Below are positions 301-8,388 of a stretch of DNA of 8,388 nucleotides, piece by piece. How positions within the stretch are numbered: position 1 is the first letter of the stretch; each line of letters starts with the position of its first letter. Both the position numbers and the translations under genes were made by a program. The notes below the pieces were generated by a model. The model saw only the letters and a program-made list of their open reading frames with translations. It did not search any database and had not been told where the DNA came from. Origin of the DNA: a virus (lineage: Duplodnaviria > Heunggongvirae > Uroviricota > Caudoviricetes); the IMG/VR virus record IMGVR_UViG_2690315922_000011. One strand, given 5' to 3'.

Positions 301-2364
301 TTATTCCTCTGGGTAAGCTGAGCTAATCAGAGTGTCTTCTTGCATTCGATTAATGTGAGATGTAGTCCTTTCATCAATAATCTTTCCATCAAGAATTGTC
401 TGGGTAGTGACATTAATTGTCTGAGGCTTAATACTTACTGATGGTTTAATAACCTTTAAATCTTGAGTAAATGTTTCCACTCGACCTTTCAGATTATTTA
501 ATGACTCAGGTGAAAGCTGTGGAACATCTTTTGATTTACCCTGAACCATAGCCCATAAAACAGCGGCTAAAGAGTTCATGTCACCAGTTAATGCCTGGTC
601 TGTGGGTTCCACCTTTGCCCGTACAATTTTATCCATTGGATTATCGGACTTACTCATCTGACGTTCATAGAACGGTTTGACAATGGCATTAATCACATCA
701 GTTGCCATACCGACAATCATTACTTTGGTAATTGCATCAGCTACAGATAATTTCCCTTTACCACCTTCAACACTACCAGAGCGTGAATTAATTCTCCCTG
801 CTGCTGTATTCGCTACATTTCCAAGCGTGGAAATAGCCCTGATTAAGTTCCAGATACCACCTACAGCACCAATACCAGACCTCACAGCAACAATTCCAGC
901 AAGTCCCTTTAATGCACTTAACAGGCCATTTGCAATACCATCAGCCACAGTTTTTTGAGTGTCATTTAATTCTCTGTAAGCAAGGGTCACTCTGTCAAAG
1001 AATCCCTGCACTCGGTAGCTAATCGTGGTTAAATCATCAATACCGTTTGACATGCTTTTCATCAAGTCGCCAAAATGTTCACCAAGATTTTTAGATTGAC
1101 CACCCAGTGAATTAAGTAAATTAGTCAGTGACCTTGTAAAGTCTGTTAATCCTTCCTGTGAACCATCGAACATTAAGGCCAGATTATTATTCCATTCATT
1201 AGAAAGGCGACCTAACTGTGTCTGAGTAGAGTTAATAATCTTTTCCCATCCTCCCGCTTTATCAATCATCTTTCCCATTTCAGCGGATACTTTAGGGAGA
1301 ACATCTTTAGAAAGAACCTTACCGTCTTTCATAGCCTTGTCTAATTCTTCCGTAGTCATCCCAAGACTTCTGGCAAATAACTGAAAAGCACCTGCCATTC
1401 TGTCACCTAACTGACCGCGTAATTCTTCAGCCTGAATCTTTCCTTTAGATGCCATCTGCTCGAAAGCTTTTAAAATCCCGTTAATTTCATCGGTGCTTAG
1501 CCCCATTAATCTGGATGTGCCAATCACGTTGGAAAATAAGGATTCTTTCTGGCTTGTATCCATGTTACCAGCGCCAGCGGAAAACTTAGCGTAGCTTGAT
1601 AATGTTTCAATCTGGTCTACACCTGTTTTGCCAGCAAGACTCTTAACGAATTCTGTAGCTCGTTTAGCACCTTCATCACCTAAAACAAATTGTGCCGCTC
1701 GTTGTGATGCTTCTTTTTTCAAACCAATCTCCATCACCTTTCTGTAGGCTTCAAGGGCTGTTTGAAAACTATAAATGGCTGTACCTGCTTTAATTGCACT
1801 CGTGGCTAATACATCCAGACTATTTGAAGCATTTTCACTGTGATTACTTTTGCTGGTGGATGTGTGACCTCTGGACTTAATAAGAGCTTCACGTAGATTT
1901 TGATTTAACTTTGCCAGTTCACGATTAAAAGCTTCGTTTCCAAGTGTCTTAGCTTTGGAGCTCAGATTGTAATACTGCGCCTTGAACATTTTGGCTAACA
2001 GAGGGTCAATGCTATTTAGCTTGCTCATGTTCGAGCTATGCGCGGCTGTGATAGCTCTGTTGCCGCTAATTCGTGGTTGTCTAAGTGGCTTTAAAGTATC
2101 CTCAATTTCCGTTTTAATCTTAAACGCTTTAGTATTTTTAAGACGCTGCTCAATCTTGGAAATGGTTTTATCGACATTCTTTTCCATTACCTTGAGAGAG
2201 TCATTTAAAGGCGCAGGATTAACTTTAAAAGCTTTATTCAGTCGTTTCTCAATTCTTGATGCGATTTGCATCGTTTGTTTCTCGACTTTTTCCAGACCTT
2301 TTAAAACCTTCTGAGAGTTAAAACTTAACTCAATCAGAAAATCATCGACTTTAAATTGTGCCAT
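301..2364 (-). CDS. Phage tail tape-measure protein (tail length determinant)
   Basis: 687-aa ORF. K/E-rich coiled-coil-like N-terminus; segment LSTDEINGILKAFEQMASKGKIQAEELRGQLGDRMAGAFQLFARSLGMTTEEL resembles the conserved tape-measure core as I recall it; Gly/Ala-rich hydrophobic segment GLLSALKGLAGIVAVRSGIGAVGGIWNLIRAISTLG typical of these proteins. SD AGAGGTGA about 11 nt upstream of ATG 2364-2362. A downstream tail gene follows. Confidence 0.8.
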   Translation of the reverse strand: MAQFKVDDFLIELSFNSQKVLKGLEKVEKQTMQIASRIEKRLNKAFKVNPAPLNDSLKVMEKNVDKTISKIEQRLKNTKAFKIKTEIEDTLKPLRQPRISGNRAITAAHSSNMSKLNSIDPLLAKMFKAQYYNLSSKAKTLGNEAFNRELAKLNQNLREALIKSRGHTSTSKSNHSENASNSLDVLATSAIKAGTAIYSFQTALEAYRKVMEIGLKKEASQRAAQFVLGDEGAKRATEFVKSLAGKTGVDQIETLSSYAKFSAGAGNMDTSQKESLFSNVIGTSRLMGLSTDEINGILKAFEQMASKGKIQAEELRGQLGDRMAGAFQLFARSLGMTTEELDKAMKDGKVLSKDVLPKVSAEMGKMIDKAGGWEKIINSTQTQLGRLSNEWNNNLALMFDGSQEGLTDFTRSLTNLLNSLGGQSKNLGEHFGDLMKSMSNGIDDLTTISYRVQGFFDRVTLAYRELNDTQKTVADGIANGLLSALKGLAGIVAVRSGIGAVGGIWNLIRAISTLGNVANTAAGRINSRSGSVEGGKGKLSVADAITKVMIVGMATDVINAIVKPFYERQMSKSDNPMDKIVRAKVEPTDQALTGDMNSLAAVLWAMVQGKSKDVPQLSPESLNNLKGRVETFTQDLKVIKPSVSIKPQTINVTTQTILDGKIIDERTTSHINRMQEDTLISSAYPEE

Positions 2365-2727: not shown

Positions 2728-3447
2728 TTAAATAGCCTTTGCGTACTTGCTAGAAATCTTAATAAGCTGCTCAATGTCACCTTGCAAGGCAACCTTTTTC
2801 TGTGCCTCGTATTCGACTATCAAAGATTTCATTACATTAAATTCGTTTTTCAAATCCTGTTTTAACCTGTCCAACTTGTCAGCGTGACGCTTAAGCAAAT
2901 TATTTTCAGCCAGTTTAAAAATCTCTTCGTCGCTTTTGTCGCTTGTCAAAATGAATTGCCCTGAGCCTAATGTTGCAGGCTTCACATCAATTAAACGATG
3001 CCCCTCGGGAATATTTCGAATAACCTCCGAAACAAGTTCTCGTGGAGTACCATAACCACCGTTGTGATTTCCCTCGTAATAGACAAATGGGTTTGCTGCA
3101 ATTTCGTAAGCAACAACATGCTCGGATAGTTCCCCTGCATCTTTCATCTGAACTAATTTGTCGTAAGCGCTATCTAATCTAATTCGCTGCTCTTTAAGGA
3201 CTGGATAAAATCGTTTTTCAAGCTCAAGCAGCGCTTCACTTTTGCACAAATCCGGCATTTCCTGAGGAGCTTCAGGAGTCACATAGATAGTCATTTTCGG
3301 CAAAGATTTGAATTCCTTTTCGCGCTCAATTAATTTATCAAAAAATCTGCGTTGCTCTGACACTCCCGGATGCTGTGTGATAATTCCTGTGTCCCAATCA
3401 CCAAAACTATCAATTTTGCGACCATTCACAAAAATAGGATTTTCCAT
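2728..3447 (-). CDS. Hypothetical protein (240 aa) with C-terminal coiled-coil-like region; function unknown
   Basis: The ORF track extends this frame to 3564, but the ATG at 3447-3445 (MENPIFVNGRK...) has a strong SD (GAGGTG, 6-nt spacer), whereas the upstream ATG has none and its extension overlaps a terminator-like hairpin. C-terminal ~60 residues are heptad-like and K/E/L-rich (KLDRLKQDLKNEFNVMKSLIVEYEAQKKVALQGDIEQLIK). No known family recognised by eye. Confidence 0.6.
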   Translation of the reverse strand: MENPIFVNGRKIDSFGDWDTGIITQHPGVSEQRRFFDKLIEREKEFKSLPKMTIYVTPEAPQEMPDLCKSEALLELEKRFYPVLKEQRIRLDSAYDKLVQMKDAGELSEHVVAYEIAANPFVYYEGNHNGGYGTPRELVSEVIRNIPEGHRLIDVKPATLGSGQFILTSDKSDEEIFKLAENNLLKRHADKLDRLKQDLKNEFNVMKSLIVEYEAQKKVALQGDIEQLIKISSKYAKAI

Positions 3448-4214: not shown

Positions 4215-4283
4215 CTGAGGCCAGTAACCATGCGGGTTACAGAGGGAGTGAGACACCTTAGCAATAGGGTGGCTTACCTTTGA
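4215..4283. other. Two adjacent inverted repeats in the 158-bp intergenic region (candidate RNA structure or protein-binding site)
   Basis: GTAACC-atgcg-GGTTAC (4215-4231), then GAGTGAGAC (4237-4245) and GTCTCACTC (4275-4283), exact reverse complements around a 29-nt loop. The GTCTCA/TGAGAC core recurs in the repeats upstream of the recombinase. Confidence 0.4.
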
Positions 4284-4304
4284 GTCTCACTCGTTATCAC
4301 AGAC

Positions 4305-5246: not shown

Positions 5247-5284
5247 AATAAATCAATTAAAGCTGGTGGAGTTTATTCACCAGC
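5247..5284 (-). terminator. Putative intrinsic terminator overlapping the 3' end of the replication gene
   Basis: GCTGGTG (5262-5268) and CACCAGC (5278-5284) are exact reverse complements around a 9-nt loop that contains the stop codon. On the minus strand the stem is followed by UUUAAUUGAUUUAUU. Confidence 0.4.
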
Positions 5285-6059
5285 CGTAATCATCTTCGAA
5301 ATCCGGTAACTCATCATCGTCACCATCACATAAATCATCATCTTCATCCGGGTCCGGTAATGGTTCATCATCGTCATCGATGGTGGGGCACGGTGTATTT
5401 TTCTGGTCACTAATAACAATCACATCAGAGTTTTTATTTCTTTGTTTATTAGCCTCTTCAGAGCTTGCTTCAAGGTCATCTAAAACAGTTTGTTTAATAG
5501 TCTCTTTAATTCCAAGAGAATCACATTCATGTGAATCACAGAGCGAAGCTCCATTCTTAACAGTCCCTTCTTCAAAGTCATCTTTCCTATTGTTATTAAT
5601 AAGTTCTTTTTGTTCTTTCTTGTTATTATACGTGTCAAGAATTTTGACTGACTGAGTAAAGAATTTTGACTCAGTGGGTAAAGAATTTTGACTCAGTGGG
5701 TCATCTTTTTTGACTGCTTTAGATTCCAGCTTTGCTTTTCGTGCTTCTTTGGCTGTAGGTTCAGTTAAAACCTCAGGAACTTCATCAAGCGAAAAGACTT
5801 CAATAATACACTGGTTGCTCGCAACGTTAGTTTTCCTAATTAAACCATACGCCTCAAGTCTTTTCATACATGCAATAACTGATGTTCTTGTGATTCCTGC
5901 ATACTGACCAAGATGAGCATAAGACGGTGTATAGTATTGACCTTTATCGTGATAGTATTTTTGCTCATTCAGCATGACGGTGTAGATAATACGGTCAGCC
6001 GCTTTAATTTTATTACTCATCTGATAAATACGGTCATCAAACATGTGAAACTTTTCCAT
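5277..6059 (-). CDS. Replication initiator, lambda O-like N-terminal winged-helix domain, with poly-acidic C-terminal tail
   Basis: 260-aa ORF with SD GAGGT 9 nt before the ATG. N-terminal region DRIIYTVMLNEQKYYHDKGQYYTPSYAHLGQYAGITRTSVIACMKRLEAYGLIRK matches the phage O N-terminal pattern (..LaelTGlsrrtv..al..Le..GlI) as I recall it. Tandem iteron-like repeats and an AT-rich tract lie inside the gene, as the lambda origin does within O. C-terminus DDDDEPLPDPDEDDDLCDGDDDELPDFEDDYGW. Confidence 0.65.
   Translation of the reverse strand: MEKFHMFDDRIYQMSNKIKAADRIIYTVMLNEQKYYHDKGQYYTPSYAHLGQYAGITRTSVIACMKRLEAYGLIRKTNVASNQCIIEVFSLDEVPEVLTEPTAKEARKAKLESKAVKKDDPLSQNSLPTESKFFTQSVKILDTYNNKKEQKELINNNRKDDFEEGTVKNGASLCDSHECDSLGIKETIKQTVLDDLEASSEEANKQRNKNSDVIVISDQKNTPCPTIDDDDEPLPDPDEDDDLCDGDDDELPDFEDDYGW
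5581..5721. repeat. Putative origin of replication: four tandem 22-bp iteron-like repeats plus adjacent AT-rich tract, inside the O-like gene
   Basis: Units at 5634-5655, 5656-5677, 5678-5699 and 5700-5721; the central two are identical (GTAAAGAATTTTGACTCAGTGG), the outer two diverged, all sharing TTTTGACT. Flanked at 5581-5633 by a roughly 75% A+T tract. Confidence 0.6.
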
Positions 6060-6291
6060 TCATAAATTACCTCATACGTGAAAAGGCCAACCGGATAAAA
6101 CCGATTAGCCTGATGTGATTTAAATATCTGGGGGATTGATGGACTGATAAAGAAGCCCATGCCTGAAACAGTACGATGATTAAAACGCTGAGGTATACCC
6201 TGAATGAGAGGTTTTATATACGTCAATCATCTGACACCTCCCCAAGTGTTACCACTCCAAGACATGAACTTTTTTATCAGCCCATATAAAA

Positions 6292-6320
6292 ACTATACCA
6301 CACGTGATTATTAGTTGCAA
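6292..6320 (-). promoter_or_regulatory. Candidate sigma70 promoter directed toward the replication gene
   Basis: Minus strand reads TTGCAA (6315-6320), 17-bp spacer, then TGgTATAGT (complement of 6292-6300), an extended -10-like element. A strong SD-like GGGGAGGTG follows about 50 nt downstream (complement of about 6232-6241). Confidence 0.4.
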
Positions 6321-6393
6321 CAACTATTTCACTAAATTATTACCGTTTGATTACTTATTGTTCACCTCATAAATACCGGGATTTATTGGAAAA

Positions 6394-6540
6394 TCAGCCT
6401 AATCTTTCAGCAATTCTGTACGAGGTACTCAGGGGCATTCTGAGAGCCTCCGCAATGTACTTGATGGTTTTGCCCTCTGTTTCTGTTATCATCGGGCTTG
6501 CCTTATCAGGGCTTTGAAATGCCTCTGTAACTCCCCCCTC
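6394..6540 (-). pseudogene. Remnant of a serine-recombinase C-terminal HTH domain (truncated; N-terminal catalytic domain absent)
   Basis: Minus-strand frame reads ...FQSPDKASPMITETEGKTIKYIAEALRMPLSTSYRIAERLG-stop, with an in-frame stop upstream at 6541-6543. Compare the intact recombinase C-terminus GRPSKASPEAVQTLISQGKTRLQIQEELGISRATFYRLAK: shared KASP linker and STxYR-type HTH. Only 32 codons from the first ATG and no upstream start; it abuts hairpin repeat copy 1. Confidence 0.35.
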
Positions 6541-6541
6541 T

Positions 6542-6600
6542 TAACAGGAGAGAGGGTGATACATGAGACAAGAACCCTCCCTTCTTAAAAACCTTCTTGA
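6542..6600. repeat. Hairpin-containing direct repeat, copy 1 (~60 bp)
   Basis: Core GGAGAGAGGGTGATACATGAGACAAGAACCCTCC (6547-6580) matches copy 2 at 33 of 34 positions. Internal inverted repeat GAGGGT/ACCCTC (longer with mismatches) around a 16-nt loop that contains ATGAGAC. Flank similarity (ACC..CTTG..TCT) continues to about 6600. Confidence 0.6.
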
Positions 6601-6937
6601 CAATCTTTACAGACCTTGTTCAAGGTAATCACAATAGTTTTTCTTCCCTCGGCTTCCCGTGTTCCTCGGTTCGTTTATTGAGACCCTGAAAGACCCTGTA
6701 ACTCCTTCTTAACGGGAGAGAAAGAACATAGTGACCCCCAAGCGAAGCGCCCCTTTTAGTATGCTTTTTAATCACCATTTTAGCATTTAGTGCTTTTTAT
6801 TAAATTTAGCACTTTTTGCTAAAGACAAAACACTTGACAAATTGCTAAGATTGGACACATACCCCATCTTAACAGACTTTTAAGAGACTTTTAAACGGCC
6901 TGTTTAACCGGGTCACTATCCGGTTCTTCGTTCCCCC

Positions 6938-6951
6938 TCTATCTAGATAGA
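6938..6951. promoter_or_regulatory. 14-bp perfect palindrome TCTATCTAGATAGA (candidate operator or protein-binding site)
   Basis: The sequence equals its own reverse complement. Flanked by repeated CTGTTAAGA motifs (6953-6961, 6988-6996) and an AACCGG-n8-CCGGTT inverted repeat (6906-6925). Confidence 0.4.
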
Positions 6952-7081
6952 TACTGTTAAGATTTTTTAAGAAATCTCTTACGTCAACTGTTAAGATAAA
7001 CTTACCTTCCGTTAAAACAGTTCTGTCTAGCAATTTCATAATTGTCTGTCAAGTATCTTTGAAGGTACTATCAAGGGTCAC

Positions 7082-7145
7082 TAAGCGGGAGAGAGGGTGA
7101 TACATGAGATAAGAACCCTCCTGTTAAAAGACCACTTGGAAAGTC
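7082..7145. repeat. Hairpin-containing direct repeat, copy 2 (~60 bp)
   Basis: Core GGAGAGAGGGTGATACATGAGATAAGAACCCTCC (7088-7121); same orientation as copy 1, 541 bp downstream. Followed by the 13-bp palindrome AAGTCTGAGACTT (7140-7152). Confidence 0.6.
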
Positions 7146-7534
7146 TGAGACTTTAGTAAAATCTGTGAATACGGCTTCTCAGACGCTCTGTAACGCATTC
7201 TAGGCGATTTTACCCCCTTATTTTAAGGTGGGTGGTACATCCCTATAGACTACCCCTAAAAATGGGGTTAAAACTCGCTACAGAGCTTTCTATGAGATTA
7301 GCTTCTAATCGAATCAACTATGAGGCTTGGCAGAGTTGCATAAATTTTATACAGCACTTATTCAGCTTCTAAATTTTTTATAAAAATGACTAGCCCTTCT
7401 TCAGGTTCTCTTCCTCATTAACTCCCAAAAATATCTGTGAGTGTCTATACCCGTTTGGTAGCCCAGATTCACGATATAGCCCCTCCCTTGCAAAATCTGG
7501 AAATATCTGTCATATCCTTATGACTGTAGAATAA

Positions 7535-8083
7535 TCACTTCGCCAATCGGTAAAAGGTCGCTCTAGAGATGCCTAGCTCTTCCTGAATCTGCAACCTCGT
7601 CTTACCTTGTGAAATGAGCGTCTGAACAGCCTCTGGAGAAGCTTTTGAAGGTCGTCCCATGTGAACCCCTTCAGCTTTAGCACGCTCAATGCCAGCCTTT
7701 CTACGCTCACTGATAAGGTCTTTTTCAAGGTCAGCTAAGCCAGCCATCATAGTAAGCATTGCTTTACCGATTGCCGTAGACAAGTCGAACCCTTCACGCA
7801 ACGAAACAACCCTCACACCTTTAGCCTGTAGTGTCTCCACGTTAGAGAGTACATCAACAGTATTACGCCCTAAACGGTCAATCGCTGCCACAGCTAACGT
7901 ATCGTCACACCTTACATAGTTCATCATGTCTATAAAGCCATCTCTGTTGGTAGCCTTTGTAGTTCCTGAGACAGCTTCATCAATAAACCATTTATCGACC
8001 TTGTGAACCTTCTCTATCTGTAATTTCTGGTTGTCTATAGACTGCTCTCGTGTTGATACCCTGCAATAACCAATCACCGCCAT
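7535..8083 (-). CDS. Site-specific serine recombinase (small resolvase/DNA-invertase family)
   Basis: 182-aa ORF. N-terminal IGYCRVSTREQ with the catalytic-serine context; DRLGRN motif; C-terminal HTH GKTRLQIQEELGISRATFYRLAK. Size and layout match resolvase/Hin-Gin-type recombinases. SD-like GGGGGG 4 nt before the ATG. Confidence 0.9.
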   Translation of the reverse strand: MAVIGYCRVSTREQSIDNQKLQIEKVHKVDKWFIDEAVSGTTKATNRDGFIDMMNYVRCDDTLAVAAIDRLGRNTVDVLSNVETLQAKGVRVVSLREGFDLSTAIGKAMLTMMAGLADLEKDLISERRKAGIERAKAEGVHMGRPSKASPEAVQTLISQGKTRLQIQEELGISRATFYRLAK

Positions 8084-8097
8084 ACATCCCCCCTAAG

Positions 8098-8237
8098 TAG
8101 TCTCAAAAGTAAGTCTCATAAGTTTAGCTGTCTCATAATTCAAAAACAAGCTTATGAGACACTTAGAAGATGCATTCTACCGTTGCGTTGAAGGCGTCTC
8201 ATAAGGACTTCCTTTTGAGACTAACTTAGAAGGTGCA
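8098..8237. promoter_or_regulatory. Repeat array upstream of the recombinase gene: putative res-like recombination/operator site with three sub-sites
   Basis: GTCTCA(A/T)AAG motifs at 8100-8109, 8113-8122, 8130-8139, 8196-8205 and, inverted, at 8151-8160 and 8214-8222. Sub-site B is TGTCTCATAA-n13-TTATGAGACA (8129-8161); sub-site C is GTCTCATAAG-n8-TTTTGAGAC (8196-8222). An additional direct repeat ACTTAGAAGRTGCA lies at 8161-8174 and 8223-8236. Layout resembles Tn3-family res sites, which sit immediately upstream of the resolvase gene. Confidence 0.45.
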
Positions 8238-8388
8238 ATGTGCAAAACAGTTATGTTGCTTATTATTACCTCTTGCAACTGAAAAACCATGTGACCAGAT
8301 AACTGCATAGCGTTATATAGTCCTGTAAATAGCGGTTTATAAGAGTCGAGAGAGAGATGACTAACAACTGCATAGTTTTACTGATAAG

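What the first reader, a model, noticed from the sequence alone, without database searches (positions are those of the whole stretch)
6542..7145. Pair of near-identical ~60-bp hairpin repeats in direct orientation 541 bp apart, copy 1 abutting a truncated recombinase fragment
The 34-bp cores differ at one base and each folds into a stem with a 16-nt loop carrying ATGAGAC, the same half-site core that is repeated upstream of the intact recombinase gene. A third, partial copy of the left flank (CTGTAACTCC..CTTAACGGGAGAGA) lies at 6697-6722. Copy 1 ends exactly where the recombinase C-terminal remnant begins, suggesting an insertion or recombination event truncated an ancestral recombinase gene at this point. 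Possible identities: secondary recombination sites for the serine recombinase; subterminal hairpin ends of a non-autonomous IS200/IS605-like element (such ends are hairpins in direct orientation); or a host REP-like repeat family. Whatever the identity, the 541 bp between them carry no long ORF.
Basis: partly seen in the sequence, partly recalled or inferred. Interest (0 to 1): 0.6.

Follow-up and report, generated by a model that had tools for sequence, protein, structure and literature searches.

The report
Repeated stem-loops in satellite packaging-like region
The two repeats are real, but they are not recombinase sites, insertion-sequence ends or REP elements: they are two copies of a variable stem-loop element in the non-coding region of a small E. 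coli chromosomal island that copies the terminal-repeat (DNA-packaging) region of Felix O1-type phages, which points to an apparently undescribed phage satellite.

Summary
Observation confirmed. 6540-6580 and 7081-7121 are 37/41 identical (34-nt core 33/34), direct and 541 bp apart. Hairpin propensity is weak.

The window lies in a ~10.5-kb island inserted in mdtG. It carries a large serine integrase, an O-like Rep with iterons, and homologues of two adjacent Felixounavirus tail genes. It has no capsid or terminase genes, so it looks like a phage satellite.

The repeats sit in a non-coding module found in 457/5426 E. coli genomes. The DNA between them is homologous to the interior of the 581-bp direct terminal repeat (DTR) of Felixounavirus Pr103Blw. 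Window 7427-7507 mimics one DTR cut site.

Copies A and B belong to a family with at least five core types at two fixed sites. They derive from a stem-loop motif inside the phage DTR. Only two island lineages carry the same type at both sites, so the near-identity is recent gene conversion.

The core occurs 1-3 times in 101 genomes and occurs without the small recombinase. REP/MITE, IS200/IS605 and res-site readings are rejected.

Best explanation (0.42): cis-acting stem-loops of a helper-derived packaging/terminal-repeat mimic, which also act as recombination junctions. An RNA role is not excluded.

The parts
6540..6585 (+). Copy A: beta-type M element. Core 6547-6580; arms 6546-6557/6574-6585; 16-nt spacer carrying ATGAGAC at 6563.
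   Evidence: A beta core occurs at the orthologous site in L005, L006, L014 and L015. The left flank is X-type, so this copy is chimeric.
7081..7129 (+). Copy B: beta-type M element. Core 7088-7121; inner arms 7093-7098/7115-7120. An outer stem AGCGGGA/UCCUGUU forms only with G.U pairs on the + strand.
   Evidence: At the orthologous site the core is beta, B2-5 (three to four sub-variants) or B6 across 52 modules. Outer stem 83.8% paired across 38 sequences.
6697..6760 (+). Element X: third, diverged family member. Left arm CTGTAACTCC..CTTAACGGGAGAGA, then AACATAGTGACC, then the invariant block CAAGCGAAGCGCCCCT.
   Evidence: Alignment A1 invariant columns and element list. Part matches the phage terminal-repeat motif in inverted sense (E=4.1, weak on its own).
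6904..6951 (-). Element Y: the copy closest to the phage terminal-repeat motif, inverted relative to A, X and B. In relatives it is a 14-pair interrupted hairpin with compensatory changes. It is rearranged in the window (AACCGG/CCGGTT plus the TCTATCTAGATAGA palindrome).
   Evidence: helix 1: 91% paired, 4 pairs changed on both sides.
6888..7100 (.). Approximate window equivalent of the block homologous to the interior (positions 318-110) of the 581-bp direct terminal repeat of Felixounavirus Pr103Blw. Contains CTGTTAA/TTAACAG repeats.
   Evidence: Profile of 45 island modules against the whole 88,421-bp phage: E=1.7e-6, and all hits at E<=0.005 lie in the terminal repeat. TTAACAG occurs 8 times in the window against 1.6 expected, 5 of them in 6500-7150. 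The window coordinates are inferred from the anchor at 6821.
6821..6853 (+). Nearly invariant promoter-like block: AAGACA, 18 nt including TGC (TGG in relatives), then TAAGAT at 6846-6851. Used as the anchor to fetch relatives.
   Evidence: Read from alignments A1 and A3. The consensus promoter scan did not report it. Pattern hits. Function inferred only.
7427..7507 (+). Mimic of the Felixounavirus terminal-repeat boundary. The phage end ...TTT|GGTAGCCC aligns with window 7456|7457.
   Evidence: Blastn against ESCO56 E=1.4e-9 and Pr103Blw E=8.6e-6. nhmmer against the whole phage E=0.007, the only hit. Conserved in all ten islands tested. The phage boundary is the record's annotated repeat_region, determined with PhageTerm.
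6394..6530 (-). C-terminal helix-turn-helix remnant of a small serine recombinase, with its stop codon at 6394-6396.
   Evidence: 6465-6553 is 94% identical to a non-coding stretch of L007.
6590..6690 (-). Second, decayed paralogue of the same remnant sequence. This is the block found between A and X in most islands.
   Evidence: plus my own translation of the aligned sequences (inference).
7535..8083 (-). Intact small serine recombinase (182 aa). It is variable cargo of the island and is not linked to the repeats.
   Evidence: Pfam Resolvase plus HTH_7. Best PHROG hit is DNA invertase, E=7e-59. Presence or absence is uncorrelated with core type.

Best explanation
The two repeats are paralogous copies of one sequence type ('beta') of a modular stem-loop element, called M here. 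M has a purine-rich left arm ACT(A/T)AG(C/T)GGGAGAGAG, a variable core able to pair, and a pyrimidine-rich right arm CCCTCC followed by TGTTAAAAG or CTTCTTAA.

M elements punctuate the long non-coding region of a ~10.5-kb chromosomal island. That island has the gene content of a satellite of virulent Felix O1-type phages. The non-coding region derives from, and mimics, the helper's terminal-repeat (packaging) region.

The M family descends from a stem-loop motif inside the phage terminal repeat. Sites A and B bracket the segment homologous to the repeat interior, at about the repeat's length. A separate copy of one phage cut site lies ~340 bp further on.

Proposed mechanism (inferred, not shown): during infection by a Felixounavirus, helper packaging or end-processing proteins recognise this region, so island concatemers are cut and packaged. 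The M stem-loops would be the structured cis-elements of that recognition or of terminal-repeat formation.

Because the elements share arms, they also recombine with each other. This explains three things: the near-identity of A and B in this lineage (gene conversion), the chimeric left flank of copy A next to the recombinase remnant, and the swapping of flanking cargo.
For: Island context:
- Large serine recombinase, Dit-like, TMP, small ORFs, Rep, ~1.5 kb non-coding DNA, then variable cargo, inserted between msyB and lpxL inside mdtG.
- Related islands sit at yciI and yecE.
- The Rep is O-like with iterons inside the gene.
- The TMP is 30% identical over its full length to the Pr103Blw TMP. 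The Dit-like protein is 77% identical to the phage gene right after the TMP. The first 209 nt of the window are 87% identical to 182 phage records, nearly all Felix O1-type.

Module:
- 457/5426 E. coli genomes match it, with no annotated feature under nearly all matches.
- 49 further loci were fetched with a conserved pattern.

Homology to the helper terminal repeat:
- Island profile against the whole phage gives E=1.7e-6 to positions 318-110 of the 581-bp repeat, and every hit at E<=0.005 lies in the repeat.
- The boundary mimic scores E=1.4e-9 and its cut position aligns base for base.
- Element Y hits many Felixounavirus records in unannotated DNA.
- The repeat length and position come from PhageTerm (PMC8303462) and the record's repeat_region.

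Element family:
- Shared arms with at least five core types at fixed sites.
- Hairpin potential recurs across unrelated cores: GAGGGT/ACCCTC, GAGGGG/CCCCTC, GATGCTC/GAGCATC and GAGC/GCTC, the last changing to GGC/GCC.
- Neighbouring hairpins covary: 85% of cells paired against 41-50% when slid, and 35 double-sided changes against 15.9 +/- 3 in shuffles.

Geometry:
- A-B spacing is 541-564 bp in this lineage and ~620-660 bp in the other islands that carry an A-site element. The phage repeat is 581-590 bp.
- B lies ~55-100 bp beyond the end of the homologous block. Extrapolation (110 bp) puts the phage repeat end there.

Concerted evolution and recombination:
- Both window copies share a 1-nt insertion absent from all orthologues.
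- L016 carries an A/X fusion.
- Homology between island subfamilies ends at B.
Against: - No packaging data exist. The contigs fetched are integrated islands and give no physical ends.
- The phage region has no obvious counterpart of the A/B hairpins at its own repeat boundaries.
- The true boundary homologue in the island (7457) lies outside the A-B interval and is not collinear with the phage order.
- No significant homologue of the second phage boundary was found.
- The region around A shows no detectable phage homology: profile blocks -330..-100 and -150..+60 gave no hit.
- Folding energies of A and B are not exceptional.
- RNAalifold on an automatic alignment of 24 elements predicts no consensus pair.
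- Most islands have different types at A and B, so identical sites are not required. Some islands lack A altogether (L008 and the other Dam-methyltransferase cargo islands).
- In the window lineage the module is partly deleted and rearranged, so this copy may be degenerate.
Confidence: 0.42

Rival explanations
1. The elements are hairpins in a non-coding RNA, or boundaries of transcription units, read from the + strand. A conserved promoter-like block at 6821-6853 would drive a ~250-400-nt structured RNA (Y hairpin, a C(UUCG)G hairpin in relatives, then B as its 3' hairpin). Copy A would end or start another unit.
For: - The promoter-like block is nearly invariant.
- + strand folding z-scores of A/B-type elements are mostly negative, and more so than on the - strand.
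- B's outer stem needs G.U pairs, and the G.U to G-C changes (L005 versus L009) keep pairing on the + strand only.
- The Y and UUCG-loop hairpins carry compensatory changes.
- No ORF is conserved in the region.
- Strong sigma-70-like promoters directly follow B in several island subtypes (TTGACG-N16-TATAAT, TTGACA-N17-TAAGAT), read.
Against: - Rfam gives no match.
- No U-tract follows either element, and the scan found no terminator-like site.
- RNAalifold on the whole block yields only -9.7 kcal/mol. Its long-range pairs are TTAACAG/CTGTTAA repeats that also look like protein-binding motifs.
- Three consecutive wobble pairs make B's outer stem weak.
- The window lacks the UUCG hairpin.
- Copy A lies upstream of the putative promoter.
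- The structure tested was derived from sequences in the alignment, which inflates the paired percentage.
Confidence: 0.22
2. The elements have no function of their own. They are duplicated fragments of helper-derived repeat DNA, and their shared arms make them hot spots for homologous or template-switch recombination. They would be 'boundary sequences' that shuffle cargo, like the promoter-stem-loop (PeSL) repeats of T4-type phages.
For: - Mosaic breakpoints fall at the elements. At least four alternative downstream segments start right after B's right arm.
- The AP2/ERF-cargo islands diverge inside B.
- The Dam-methyltransferase-cargo islands start inside X.
- Copy A in the window is chimeric, and L016 has an A/X fusion.
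- The loop of the B6 hairpin is inverted between L006 and L007.
- Some islands lack A.
Against: - An element is retained at site B in 53 of the 54 loci that extend far enough to show it; L045 is the exception.
- Hairpin potential persists across unrelated core sequences.
- The arms are well conserved (conservation line).
- This reading is compatible with the best explanation rather than exclusive of it.
Confidence: 0.2
3. One reading: the repeats are accessory or secondary recombination sites for the small serine recombinase encoded at 7535-8083, sharing its ATGAGAC half-site.
For: - ATGAGAC occurs 5 times in the window against 1.15 expected: four upstream of the recombinase gene and one in copy A.
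- GAGGGT-N16-ACCCTC spans 28 bp, the size of a resolvase dimer site. This is a comparison from memory, not a test.
- TGAGAC is enriched: 12 against 3.7.
Against: - The beta core occurs in islands without the recombinase, and the recombinase occurs next to other core types.
- Orthologous cores read ATGAGAAAG, and copy B reads ATGAGAT.
- There is only one half-site and no inverted partner at the right spacing.
- The arms (GAGGGT) are unrelated to the GTCTCATAA half-sites at 8098-8223.
Confidence: 0.04
4. The repeats are ends of a non-autonomous IS200/IS605-type element or MITE, or members of a host REP-like family.
For: Direct orientation of two hairpin-capable ends ~0.5 kb apart with no ORF between them.
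Against: - 101/5426 genomes, 1-3 copies each, none on plasmids.
- Always at fixed positions of the same island module.
- No match in the phage, plasmid or IMG/VR collections outside this module.
- The interior is homologous to a phage terminal repeat.
- In most islands the two 'ends' are different sequences.
- No empty-site/filled-site pair was seen.
Confidence: 0.02

Closest known systems
Packaging-signal mimicry by phage satellites (P4 cos, SaPI pac/cos sites, V. cholerae PLE hijacking ICP1)
   Same: A small integrative island with its own integrase and replication initiator and no capsid or terminase genes. It carries helper-like cis DNA: homology to the helper's packaging/terminal region. 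It also carries homologues of helper structural genes. Like PLE, it uses a large serine recombinase and its presumed helper is a virulent myovirus. The description of the known systems is from my own knowledge.
   Different: The mimicked region is a short direct terminal repeat (DTR) region rather than a cos or headful pac site. The island encodes a tape measure and the adjacent tail or baseplate gene. The mimic is rearranged and holds 3-4 copies of a motif that is single-copy in the phage. Helper dependence and packaging are not shown. I found no description of this island family in the held library.
Concatemer-junction elements of terminal-repeat phages (T7 pac sites, 7-bp repeat arrays beside the repeat, and the hairpin intermediate in T7 end formation)
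   Same: Short repeat arrays (TTAACA-type) fill and flank the Felixounavirus terminal repeat and the island module. Stem-loop-capable elements lie near where the repeat ends would map.
   Different: The T7 details are recalled from memory and were not tested. Nothing is known experimentally about Felixounavirus end formation. The A/B-type hairpins are not seen at the phage's own boundaries.
PeSL (promoter-early stem-loop) repeats of T4-type phages and 'boundary sequences' of lambdoid phages
   Same: Short conserved stem-loop or promoter-associated repeats sit between modules and coincide with mosaic breakpoints and cargo exchange.
   Different: Here the repeats lie in a non-coding, helper-derived region rather than between small early genes. 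A promoter follows the element only in some subtypes.
res/hix sites of small serine recombinases
   Same: 28-bp span with 6-bp inverted outer arms. One heptamer is shared with the half-sites upstream of the recombinase gene.
   Different: No co-distribution with the recombinase. The half-site is not conserved. There is no three-subsite architecture at these positions.

Membership tests
REP / MITE-type dispersed repeat | Many dispersed copies per genome in unrelated contexts | tested here: not met
   101 of 5426 E. coli genomes carry the core, with 1-3 places each (median 1), all chromosomal. In every locus examined it sits in the same module position.
IS200/IS605-derived non-autonomous element | Element bounded by its own subterminal hairpins and found as a mobile unit at different sites; cognate Y1 transposase or TnpB in the genome | tested here: not met
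   The A-to-B unit is never seen outside the island module. In most islands the two sites hold different cores. No transposase domain appears among island genes. The 'transposase' label on the 239-aa protein in RefSeq is not backed by any Pfam, PHROG or NCBIfam hit.
Serine-recombinase res/hix site | Co-occurrence with the cognate recombinase | tested here: not met
   Beta cores occur without the recombinase (L006, L008, L009, L048, L056). The recombinase occurs with other cores (L013, L020, L028, L040, L047).
Serine-recombinase res/hix site | Conserved inverted half-sites matching the recombinase's known sites | tested here: not met
   Only copy A has ATGAGAC. Copy B and all orthologues differ. 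The arms GAGGGT/ACCCTC are unlike the GTCTCATAA half-sites at 8098-8223.
Serine-recombinase res/hix site | Binding and recombination by the purified recombinase | not testable with these tools
   Needs a gel-shift or in vitro recombination assay.
Integron attC | IntI tyrosine integrase next to the array; R''/L''-L'/R' pairing with extrahelical bases; cassettes holding ORFs | tested here: not met
   No tyrosine recombinase appears in any island gene list. The A-B interval holds no conserved ORF. The TTAAC...GTTAA resemblance to core sites was judged by eye only.
Intrinsic (Rho-independent) terminator | G+C-rich stem with a 3-8-nt loop followed by a T-run | tested here: not met
   The scan found no terminator-like site in 6000-8388 on either strand. 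The loops are 15-16 nt and no T-run follows.
Known RNA family (Rfam 15) | Covariance-model match | tested here: not met
   Only two sub-threshold snoRNA matches, both elsewhere in the window.
Structured RNA or DNA stem-loop element (generic) | Base pairs maintained by compensatory change | tested here: inconclusive
   Neighbouring Y and UUCG-loop hairpins: yes, 7 pairs with double-sided changes. B outer stem: 83.8% paired, mostly through G.U to G-C changes, with 1 double change. Inner stems of A and B keep GAG../..CTC pairing across unrelated cores, but automatic alignment gives no consensus and z-scores are modest.
Satellite mimic of a helper packaging/terminal region | Sequence homology to the helper's packaging region | tested here: met
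   Interior block E=1.7e-6, with all hits at E<=0.005 inside the repeat. Boundary E=1.4e-9 with the cut position aligned. Y hits many Felixounavirus genomes.
Satellite mimic of a helper packaging/terminal region | Island otherwise linked to that helper and lacking its own capsid and terminase genes | tested here: met
   TMP 30% and Dit-like 77% identical to adjacent Pr103Blw genes. No capsid or terminase domain among island genes.
Satellite mimic of a helper packaging/terminal region | Island DNA packaged by the helper, with ends at the mimic | not testable with these tools
   The contigs fetched are integrated copies without terminal overlaps. Particle DNA sequencing is needed.

The most novel reading that the evidence does not exclude
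These ~10.5-kb E. coli islands are a previously undescribed, PLE-like family of satellites of virulent Felix O1-type phages. The satellite copies the helper's direct-terminal-repeat region, and the paired M stem-loops (A and B) mark the ends of the satellite's own terminal repeat. In that case helper terminase would generate and package satellite genomes with a ~0.55-0.65-kb terminal redundancy. This would be the first satellite shown to exploit a DTR-type packaging pathway, and it would identify the cis-elements of Felixounavirus end formation.
Probability: 0.25. Interest if true: 0.8.

Novelty: new variant of a known kind. Interest (0 to 1): 0.6.

Why it matters
If the reading is right, the repeats are a handle on two open problems.

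First, how phages with short direct terminal repeats of the Felix O1 type recognise and cut their concatemers. The island has kept, multiplied and varied only a few pieces of the helper's 1.7-kb non-coding region. That pinpoints candidate cis-elements: the M stem-loop, the TTAACAG arrays and the GGTAGCCC cut site.

Second, it would add an E. coli counterpart to the Vibrio PLE/ICP1 system: an integrative satellite of a virulent myovirus, present in about 8% of complete E. coli genomes. Its variable cargo slots (small recombinase, AP2/ERF protein, Dam methylase) may hold anti-phage functions. Felix O1-type phages are widely used in typing and biocontrol, so a resident satellite that parasitises them has practical weight.

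If the RNA or recombination-junction reading is right instead, the finding is of more local interest.

Tried and rejected
- Megablast of the region against phages and plasmids gave no match. An exact-pattern scan of IMG/VR for the core gave none.
- Rfam gave nothing relevant.
- Single-protein locus searches with the 239-aa protein in genome and viral collections found nothing.
- The promoter/terminator scan showed no enrichment and no terminators.
- RNAalifold on an automatic alignment of 24 elements gave no consensus structure, because MAFFT misaligns the variable cores.
- I looked for physical ends or circular overlaps in ~11-kb metagenome contigs. All are integrated copies with chromosomal flanks.
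- I looked for a homologue of the second phage repeat boundary (GCTA|GCCCCCTTAAC) in ten islands. Only short, weak hits appeared. By-eye similarity of B's arms to it was judged too weak to use.
- I looked for partner GGGCTA sites pointing inward from the 7457 site. There are none in the window or up to the island end.
- Blast of the commonest B-type element plus its downstream promoter against phages gave no match.
- Phage counterparts of the A/B hairpins were not found.
- An integron attC reading and a P4-like seqA/seqB/seqC RNA-immunity reading were considered. No tyrosine integrase is present, and the repeat search found no sequence complementary to the core between the copies.
- Literature searches for a Felix O1/Ounavirinae satellite gave no relevant paper.
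Full report
1. THE OBSERVATION

The pair is real. The repeat finder lists 6540-6580 and 7081-7121 as a two-copy direct family: 41 nt, 90% identical, spacing 541. The central 24-mer GGGTGATACATGAGAYAAGAACCC occurs exactly twice in the window, and none of 200 shuffles gave a match.

Each copy has inverted arms around a 16-nt spacer. Copy A has 6546-6557/6574-6585 (12 nt, 83% complementary). Copy B has 7093-7098/7115-7120 (6 nt, perfect).

Thermodynamically the hairpins are unremarkable. The + strand z-scores are -0.5 and -2.2 as 81-mers, and -1.7 and -1.35 as 56-mers. ATGAGAC is in copy A only; copy B reads ATGAGAT. The 'third partial copy' at 6697-6722 exists and is the left arm of a longer, diverged relative, called X here.

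The - strand of 6394-6530 translates to ...SPDKASPMITETEGKTIKYIAEALRMPLSTSYRIAERLG*. This aligns with the C-terminal helix-turn-helix of the intact recombinase at 42% identity over 38 aa, with a pairwise E of 2e-5. Pfam alone does not call it.

2. WHERE THE WINDOW COMES FROM

The exact 182-aa recombinase is encoded on eight contigs. The longest is a 4.5-Mb chromosome (CP070290). There the window is the reverse complement of a ~10.5-kb island between msyB and lpxL. The right end of the island abuts mdtG coding sequence about 190 bp beyond the window.

The island carries, in order: a 509-aa large serine recombinase, a Dit-like baseplate protein, a tape measure protein (window 301-2364), several small ORFs, a replication initiator (5277-6059), about 1.5 kb of non-coding DNA (6060-7534) and the small recombinase. 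The initiator is O-like by PHROGs and has 22-bp iterons inside the gene.

Related islands with the same backbone sit next to yciI or inside yecE in other E. coli. They carry different terminal cargo: the small recombinase, an AP2/ERF protein, a Dam methylase or a hypothetical protein.

There are no capsid or terminase genes. The tape measure protein is 30% identical over its full length to that of Felixounavirus Pr103Blw. The Dit-like protein is 77% identical to the phage gene immediately after it. The first 209 nt of the window are 87% identical to 182 phage records, nearly all Felix O1-type.

This gene content is that of a phage satellite of the PLE kind. The comparison with PLE is from my own knowledge. 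Five literature searches found no description of such a Felix O1 satellite.

3. THE REPEATS BELONG TO A CONSERVED NON-CODING MODULE

The region 6060-7540 has partial matches of 76-95% identity in 457 of 5426 complete E. coli genomes. Nearly all matches overlie no annotated feature.

I used the nearly invariant block AAAGACAA-N5-TTGACAAA-N-TG-N-TAAGATTG (window 6821-6853) as an anchor. This fetched one E. albertii contig, three IMG/VR contigs and 45 metagenome contigs, giving 52 distinct modules. No ORF is conserved in the module.

In these modules two sites hold a family of elements with common arms but interchangeable cores. Site A lies about -270 from the anchor. Site B lies between +270 and +430.

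- Left arm: ACT(A/T)AG(C/T)GGGA(G/A)AGAG.
- Right arm: CCCTCC followed by TGTTAAAAG or CTTCTTAA.
- Core types: 'beta' (the window's core), 'alpha' (GAGCGAYAACCCCAGAGAGGGAAGCTCC), three or four 'B2-5' variants (GAGGG(G)ATATGTGACCATAGG(GG)AACCCCTC) and 'B6' (GATGCTC-N9-GAGCATC).

Only the window lineage (L001-L004) and L005/L014 have beta at both sites. The usual combination is alpha at A with a B2-5 type at B.

So near-identity of the two copies is not a conserved property. Both window copies share a 1-nt insertion (ATGAGA[C/T]AAG) that all orthologous beta cores lack. This is the signature of gene conversion between A and B within this lineage.

REP or MITE. The core plus flanks occurs in only 101 of 5426 genomes, 1-3 places each, never on plasmids. 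In every locus examined it sits in the same module. This is rejected.

IS200/IS605-like ends. The same data apply. In addition, the two sites usually differ in sequence, no transposase domain is present, and the interior is phage-derived (section 5). This is rejected.

Recombinase sites. Beta cores occur in islands that lack the small recombinase within 5-8 kb (L006, L008, L009, L048, L056). Close homologues of the recombinase (90-92% identity) sit beside other core types. The ATGAGAC heptamer is not conserved. The recombinase's own half-sites (GTCTCATAA, six of them, with four exact ATGAGAC) cluster at 8098-8223. This is rejected as the general explanation. A lineage-specific coincidence cannot be formally excluded.

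Recombination at copy 1 is supported. The left flank of copy A (6465-6553) is 94% identical to DNA that in L007 directly precedes element X. The window therefore carries that block twice, at 6465-6553 and in diverged form at about 6640-6722. Copy A is a chimera of an X-type left flank and a beta core. L016 shows the reciprocal kind of event, an alpha/X fusion that deletes the interval. By my own translation of the aligned sequences, the recombinase-like reading frame persists, decayed and with stop codons, in the corresponding block of other islands. The truncation is therefore old, not specific to this window.

5. WHAT THE MODULE IS RELATED TO

A distant blastn search of phages hit the unannotated DNA of two Ounavirinae (Felix O1-like) phages. 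In ESCO56 this is a 1.7-kb gene-free stretch between convergent gene blocks, packed with TTAACA-type repeats.

In Pr103Blw the same stretch holds the 581-bp direct terminal repeat. This was determined with PhageTerm (PMC8303462) and is annotated in the record.

Three results tie the island module to it.

(a) A profile of 45 island modules (anchor +0 to +330) was searched against the whole 88,421-bp phage. It hits repeat positions 318-110 with E=1.7e-6. The only other hits below E=0.005 are also in the repeat. In the window this corresponds to roughly 6888-7100, between the two copies.

(b) Window 7427-7507 aligns with the repeat boundary (E=1.4e-9 to ESCO56, 8.6e-6 to Pr103Blw). The phage end ...TTT|GGTAGCCC coincides with window 7456|7457. 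This boundary mimic is conserved in all ten islands tested. It is the only nhmmer hit of the window region in the whole phage (E=0.007).

(c) The element called Y here (window 6904-6951; TTAACAGGTCACTACC...GGTAGTTCTGTT in relatives) matches the repeat-internal motif TTAACATGGTCACTA...TAGTGA of many Felixounavirus genomes.

By inspection, elements A, X and B are more diverged copies of the same motif in the opposite orientation. The phage sequence is CACTAAGAAAGGAAAGGGAA...ATAGTGACCATGTTAA. The B2 type reads TACTTAGTGGGAAGAGAGGGAATATGTGACCATAGG...GTTAAAAG.

6. STRUCTURE

Across 38 modules I tested a structure made of the Y hairpin, a C(TTCG)G-loop hairpin (absent from the window through deletion) and the B hairpin.

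- 85% of cells are paired, against 41-50% when partners are slid by 1-3 columns.
- There are 35 cells with changes on both sides, against 15.9 +/- 3 in shuffles (0 of 500 shuffles reach it).
- Y keeps 14 pairs (91% paired). It switches CTACC/GGTAG to CTCTT/AAGAG in one subfamily.
- The TTCG hairpin switches GATAC/GTATC, AGAAC/GTTCT and GTAAC/GTTAC.

For A and B themselves the evidence is softer. Every core type can pair GAG.../...CTC: GAGGGT/ACCCTC, GAGGGG/CCCCTC, GATGCTC/GAGCATC and GAGC/GCTC, with one GAGC to GGC compensated by GCTC to GCC. The + strand z-scores are mostly negative, from -4.0 to +0.4. B's outer stem relies on G.U pairs. An automatic alignment gives no consensus. The structure tested came from sequences in the alignment, which favours it.

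So stem-loop formation is probably selected in this module. Whether it acts in DNA or in a + strand RNA is open.

7. GEOMETRY

In the islands that carry an A-site element, A and B are ~620-660 bp apart outside the window lineage and 541-564 bp apart within it. The phage repeat is 581 bp in Pr103Blw and about 590 bp in ESCO56.

The homologous block ends at repeat position ~110, some 55-100 bp before B. Extrapolation therefore puts the repeat end at about B. Extrapolating leftwards puts the other end within ~50 bp of A. This is inference, and it is weakened by three facts:

- The flanks of A have no detectable phage homology.
- The real boundary homologue lies ~340 bp to the right of B and is not collinear with the phage order.
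- No inward-pointing partner site exists to its right.

8. EXPLANATION AND RIVALS

Most likely (0.42): A and B are two copies of a helper-derived stem-loop element inside a satellite's mimic of the Felixounavirus terminal-repeat/packaging region. They act as structured cis-sites for helper packaging or end formation, possibly marking the satellite's own terminal repeat. They also serve as recombination junctions.

- Shown: the island context, the homology to the terminal repeat and to one cut site, the element family, its distribution, and the recombination footprints.
- Inferred: helper dependence, packaging, and any role of the elements in it.

Rivals:

- Hairpins of a + strand non-coding RNA or transcription-unit boundaries (0.22). 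This draws on the invariant promoter-like block, the G.U pairs, the UUCG loop and the strong promoters right after B in some subtypes.
- Functionless repeats that merely promote recombination (0.20).
- Recombinase sites (0.04).
- IS/MITE/REP (0.02).

9. NOVELTY AND SCORE

Satellites that carry helper packaging signals are well known, so the kind is known. Several features would be new: a satellite family tied to virulent Felix O1-type phages, mimicry of a short direct-terminal-repeat region, multiplication and diversification of an internal repeat motif, and island-encoded tape measure plus adjacent tail gene.

I rate it a new variant of a known kind, with interest 0.6. The pair of repeats by itself is modest. 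Its context is what deserves follow-up.

Noticed in passing
window 7167-7212 (L009 8678-8720): A 43-nt stretch just after copy B (…GCTTCTCAGACGCTCTGTAACGCATTCTAGGCGATTTTACC) is ~90% identical to a non-coding spot in T5-like Epseptimavirus phages. In vB_SenS-3 it lies inside the annotated 9.4-kb terminal repeat, next to a LexA-box-like CTGTATATTTATACAG and a DnaA-box-like TTATCCACA. The island module may therefore combine cis-DNA from two families of terminal-repeat phages.
   Followed up: partly
window 8098-8223: An 18-nt inverted repeat (8098-8115 / 8206-8223, 94% complementary) encloses 90 bp directly upstream of the small recombinase gene. Four of the window's five ATGAGAC heptamers lie in or between its arms. 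The recombinase's best PHROG hit is 'DNA invertase'. This could be a res-like autoregulatory site or a small invertible promoter segment.
   Followed up: no
L005 ~8490-8530, L007 ~8375-8415 and most related loci; deleted in the window near 6995: A hairpin with a C(TTCG)G loop. Its outer stem covaries among island subfamilies (GATAC/GTATC, AGAAC/GTTCT, GTAAC/GTTAC). It suggests a structured + strand RNA or a DNA hairpin in the module.
   Followed up: partly
L006 ~8618-8640 versus L007 8540-8562: The B6-type hairpin GATGCTC-N9-GAGCATC has its 9-nt loop exactly inverted between two islands (TTATTGTAG versus CTACAATAA). This is a footprint of template switching or inversion at a palindrome.
   Followed up: no
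whole window plus L001 (island about 8.6-20.2 kb of L001): The island family looks like an undescribed PLE-like satellite of Felixounavirus. It has a large serine integrase, an O-like Rep, a tape measure protein (30% identity) and a Dit-like protein (77% identity) matching adjacent helper genes, and no capsid or terminase genes. It uses at least three integration sites (mdtG, near yciI, yecE) and has variable cargo slots (small recombinase, AP2/ERF, Dam methylase, HNH endonuclease).
   Followed up: partly
window 5634-5715: Three and a half 22-bp direct repeats (GTAAAGAATTTTGACTCAGTGG) lie inside the replication-initiator ORF. This is the lambda-O-like arrangement of an origin within its initiator gene.
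   Followed up: no
window 4236-4295: The inverted repeat GAGTGAGAC...GTCTCACTC (about 9-bp arms, ~27-nt spacer) sits just downstream of the 128-aa ORF, flanked by GTTACAGAG. It shares the TGAGAC and CTGTAAC words that are enriched elsewhere in the window (TGAGAC 12 against 3.7 expected).
   Followed up: no
window 2728-3447 (- strand): The 239-aa protein labelled 'transposase' in RefSeq copies of related islands has no Pfam, PHROG or NCBIfam hit. The label is unsupported and the protein is conserved across the island family.
   Followed up: no
window 6731-6755: The block GTGAC(C)CCAAGCGAAGCGCCCCT is nearly invariant in the six islands aligned (its CAAGCGAAGCGCCCCT core is invariant). It contains GCGAAGC, known from memory as an unusually stable DNA mini-hairpin found in some phage origins.
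   Followed up: no
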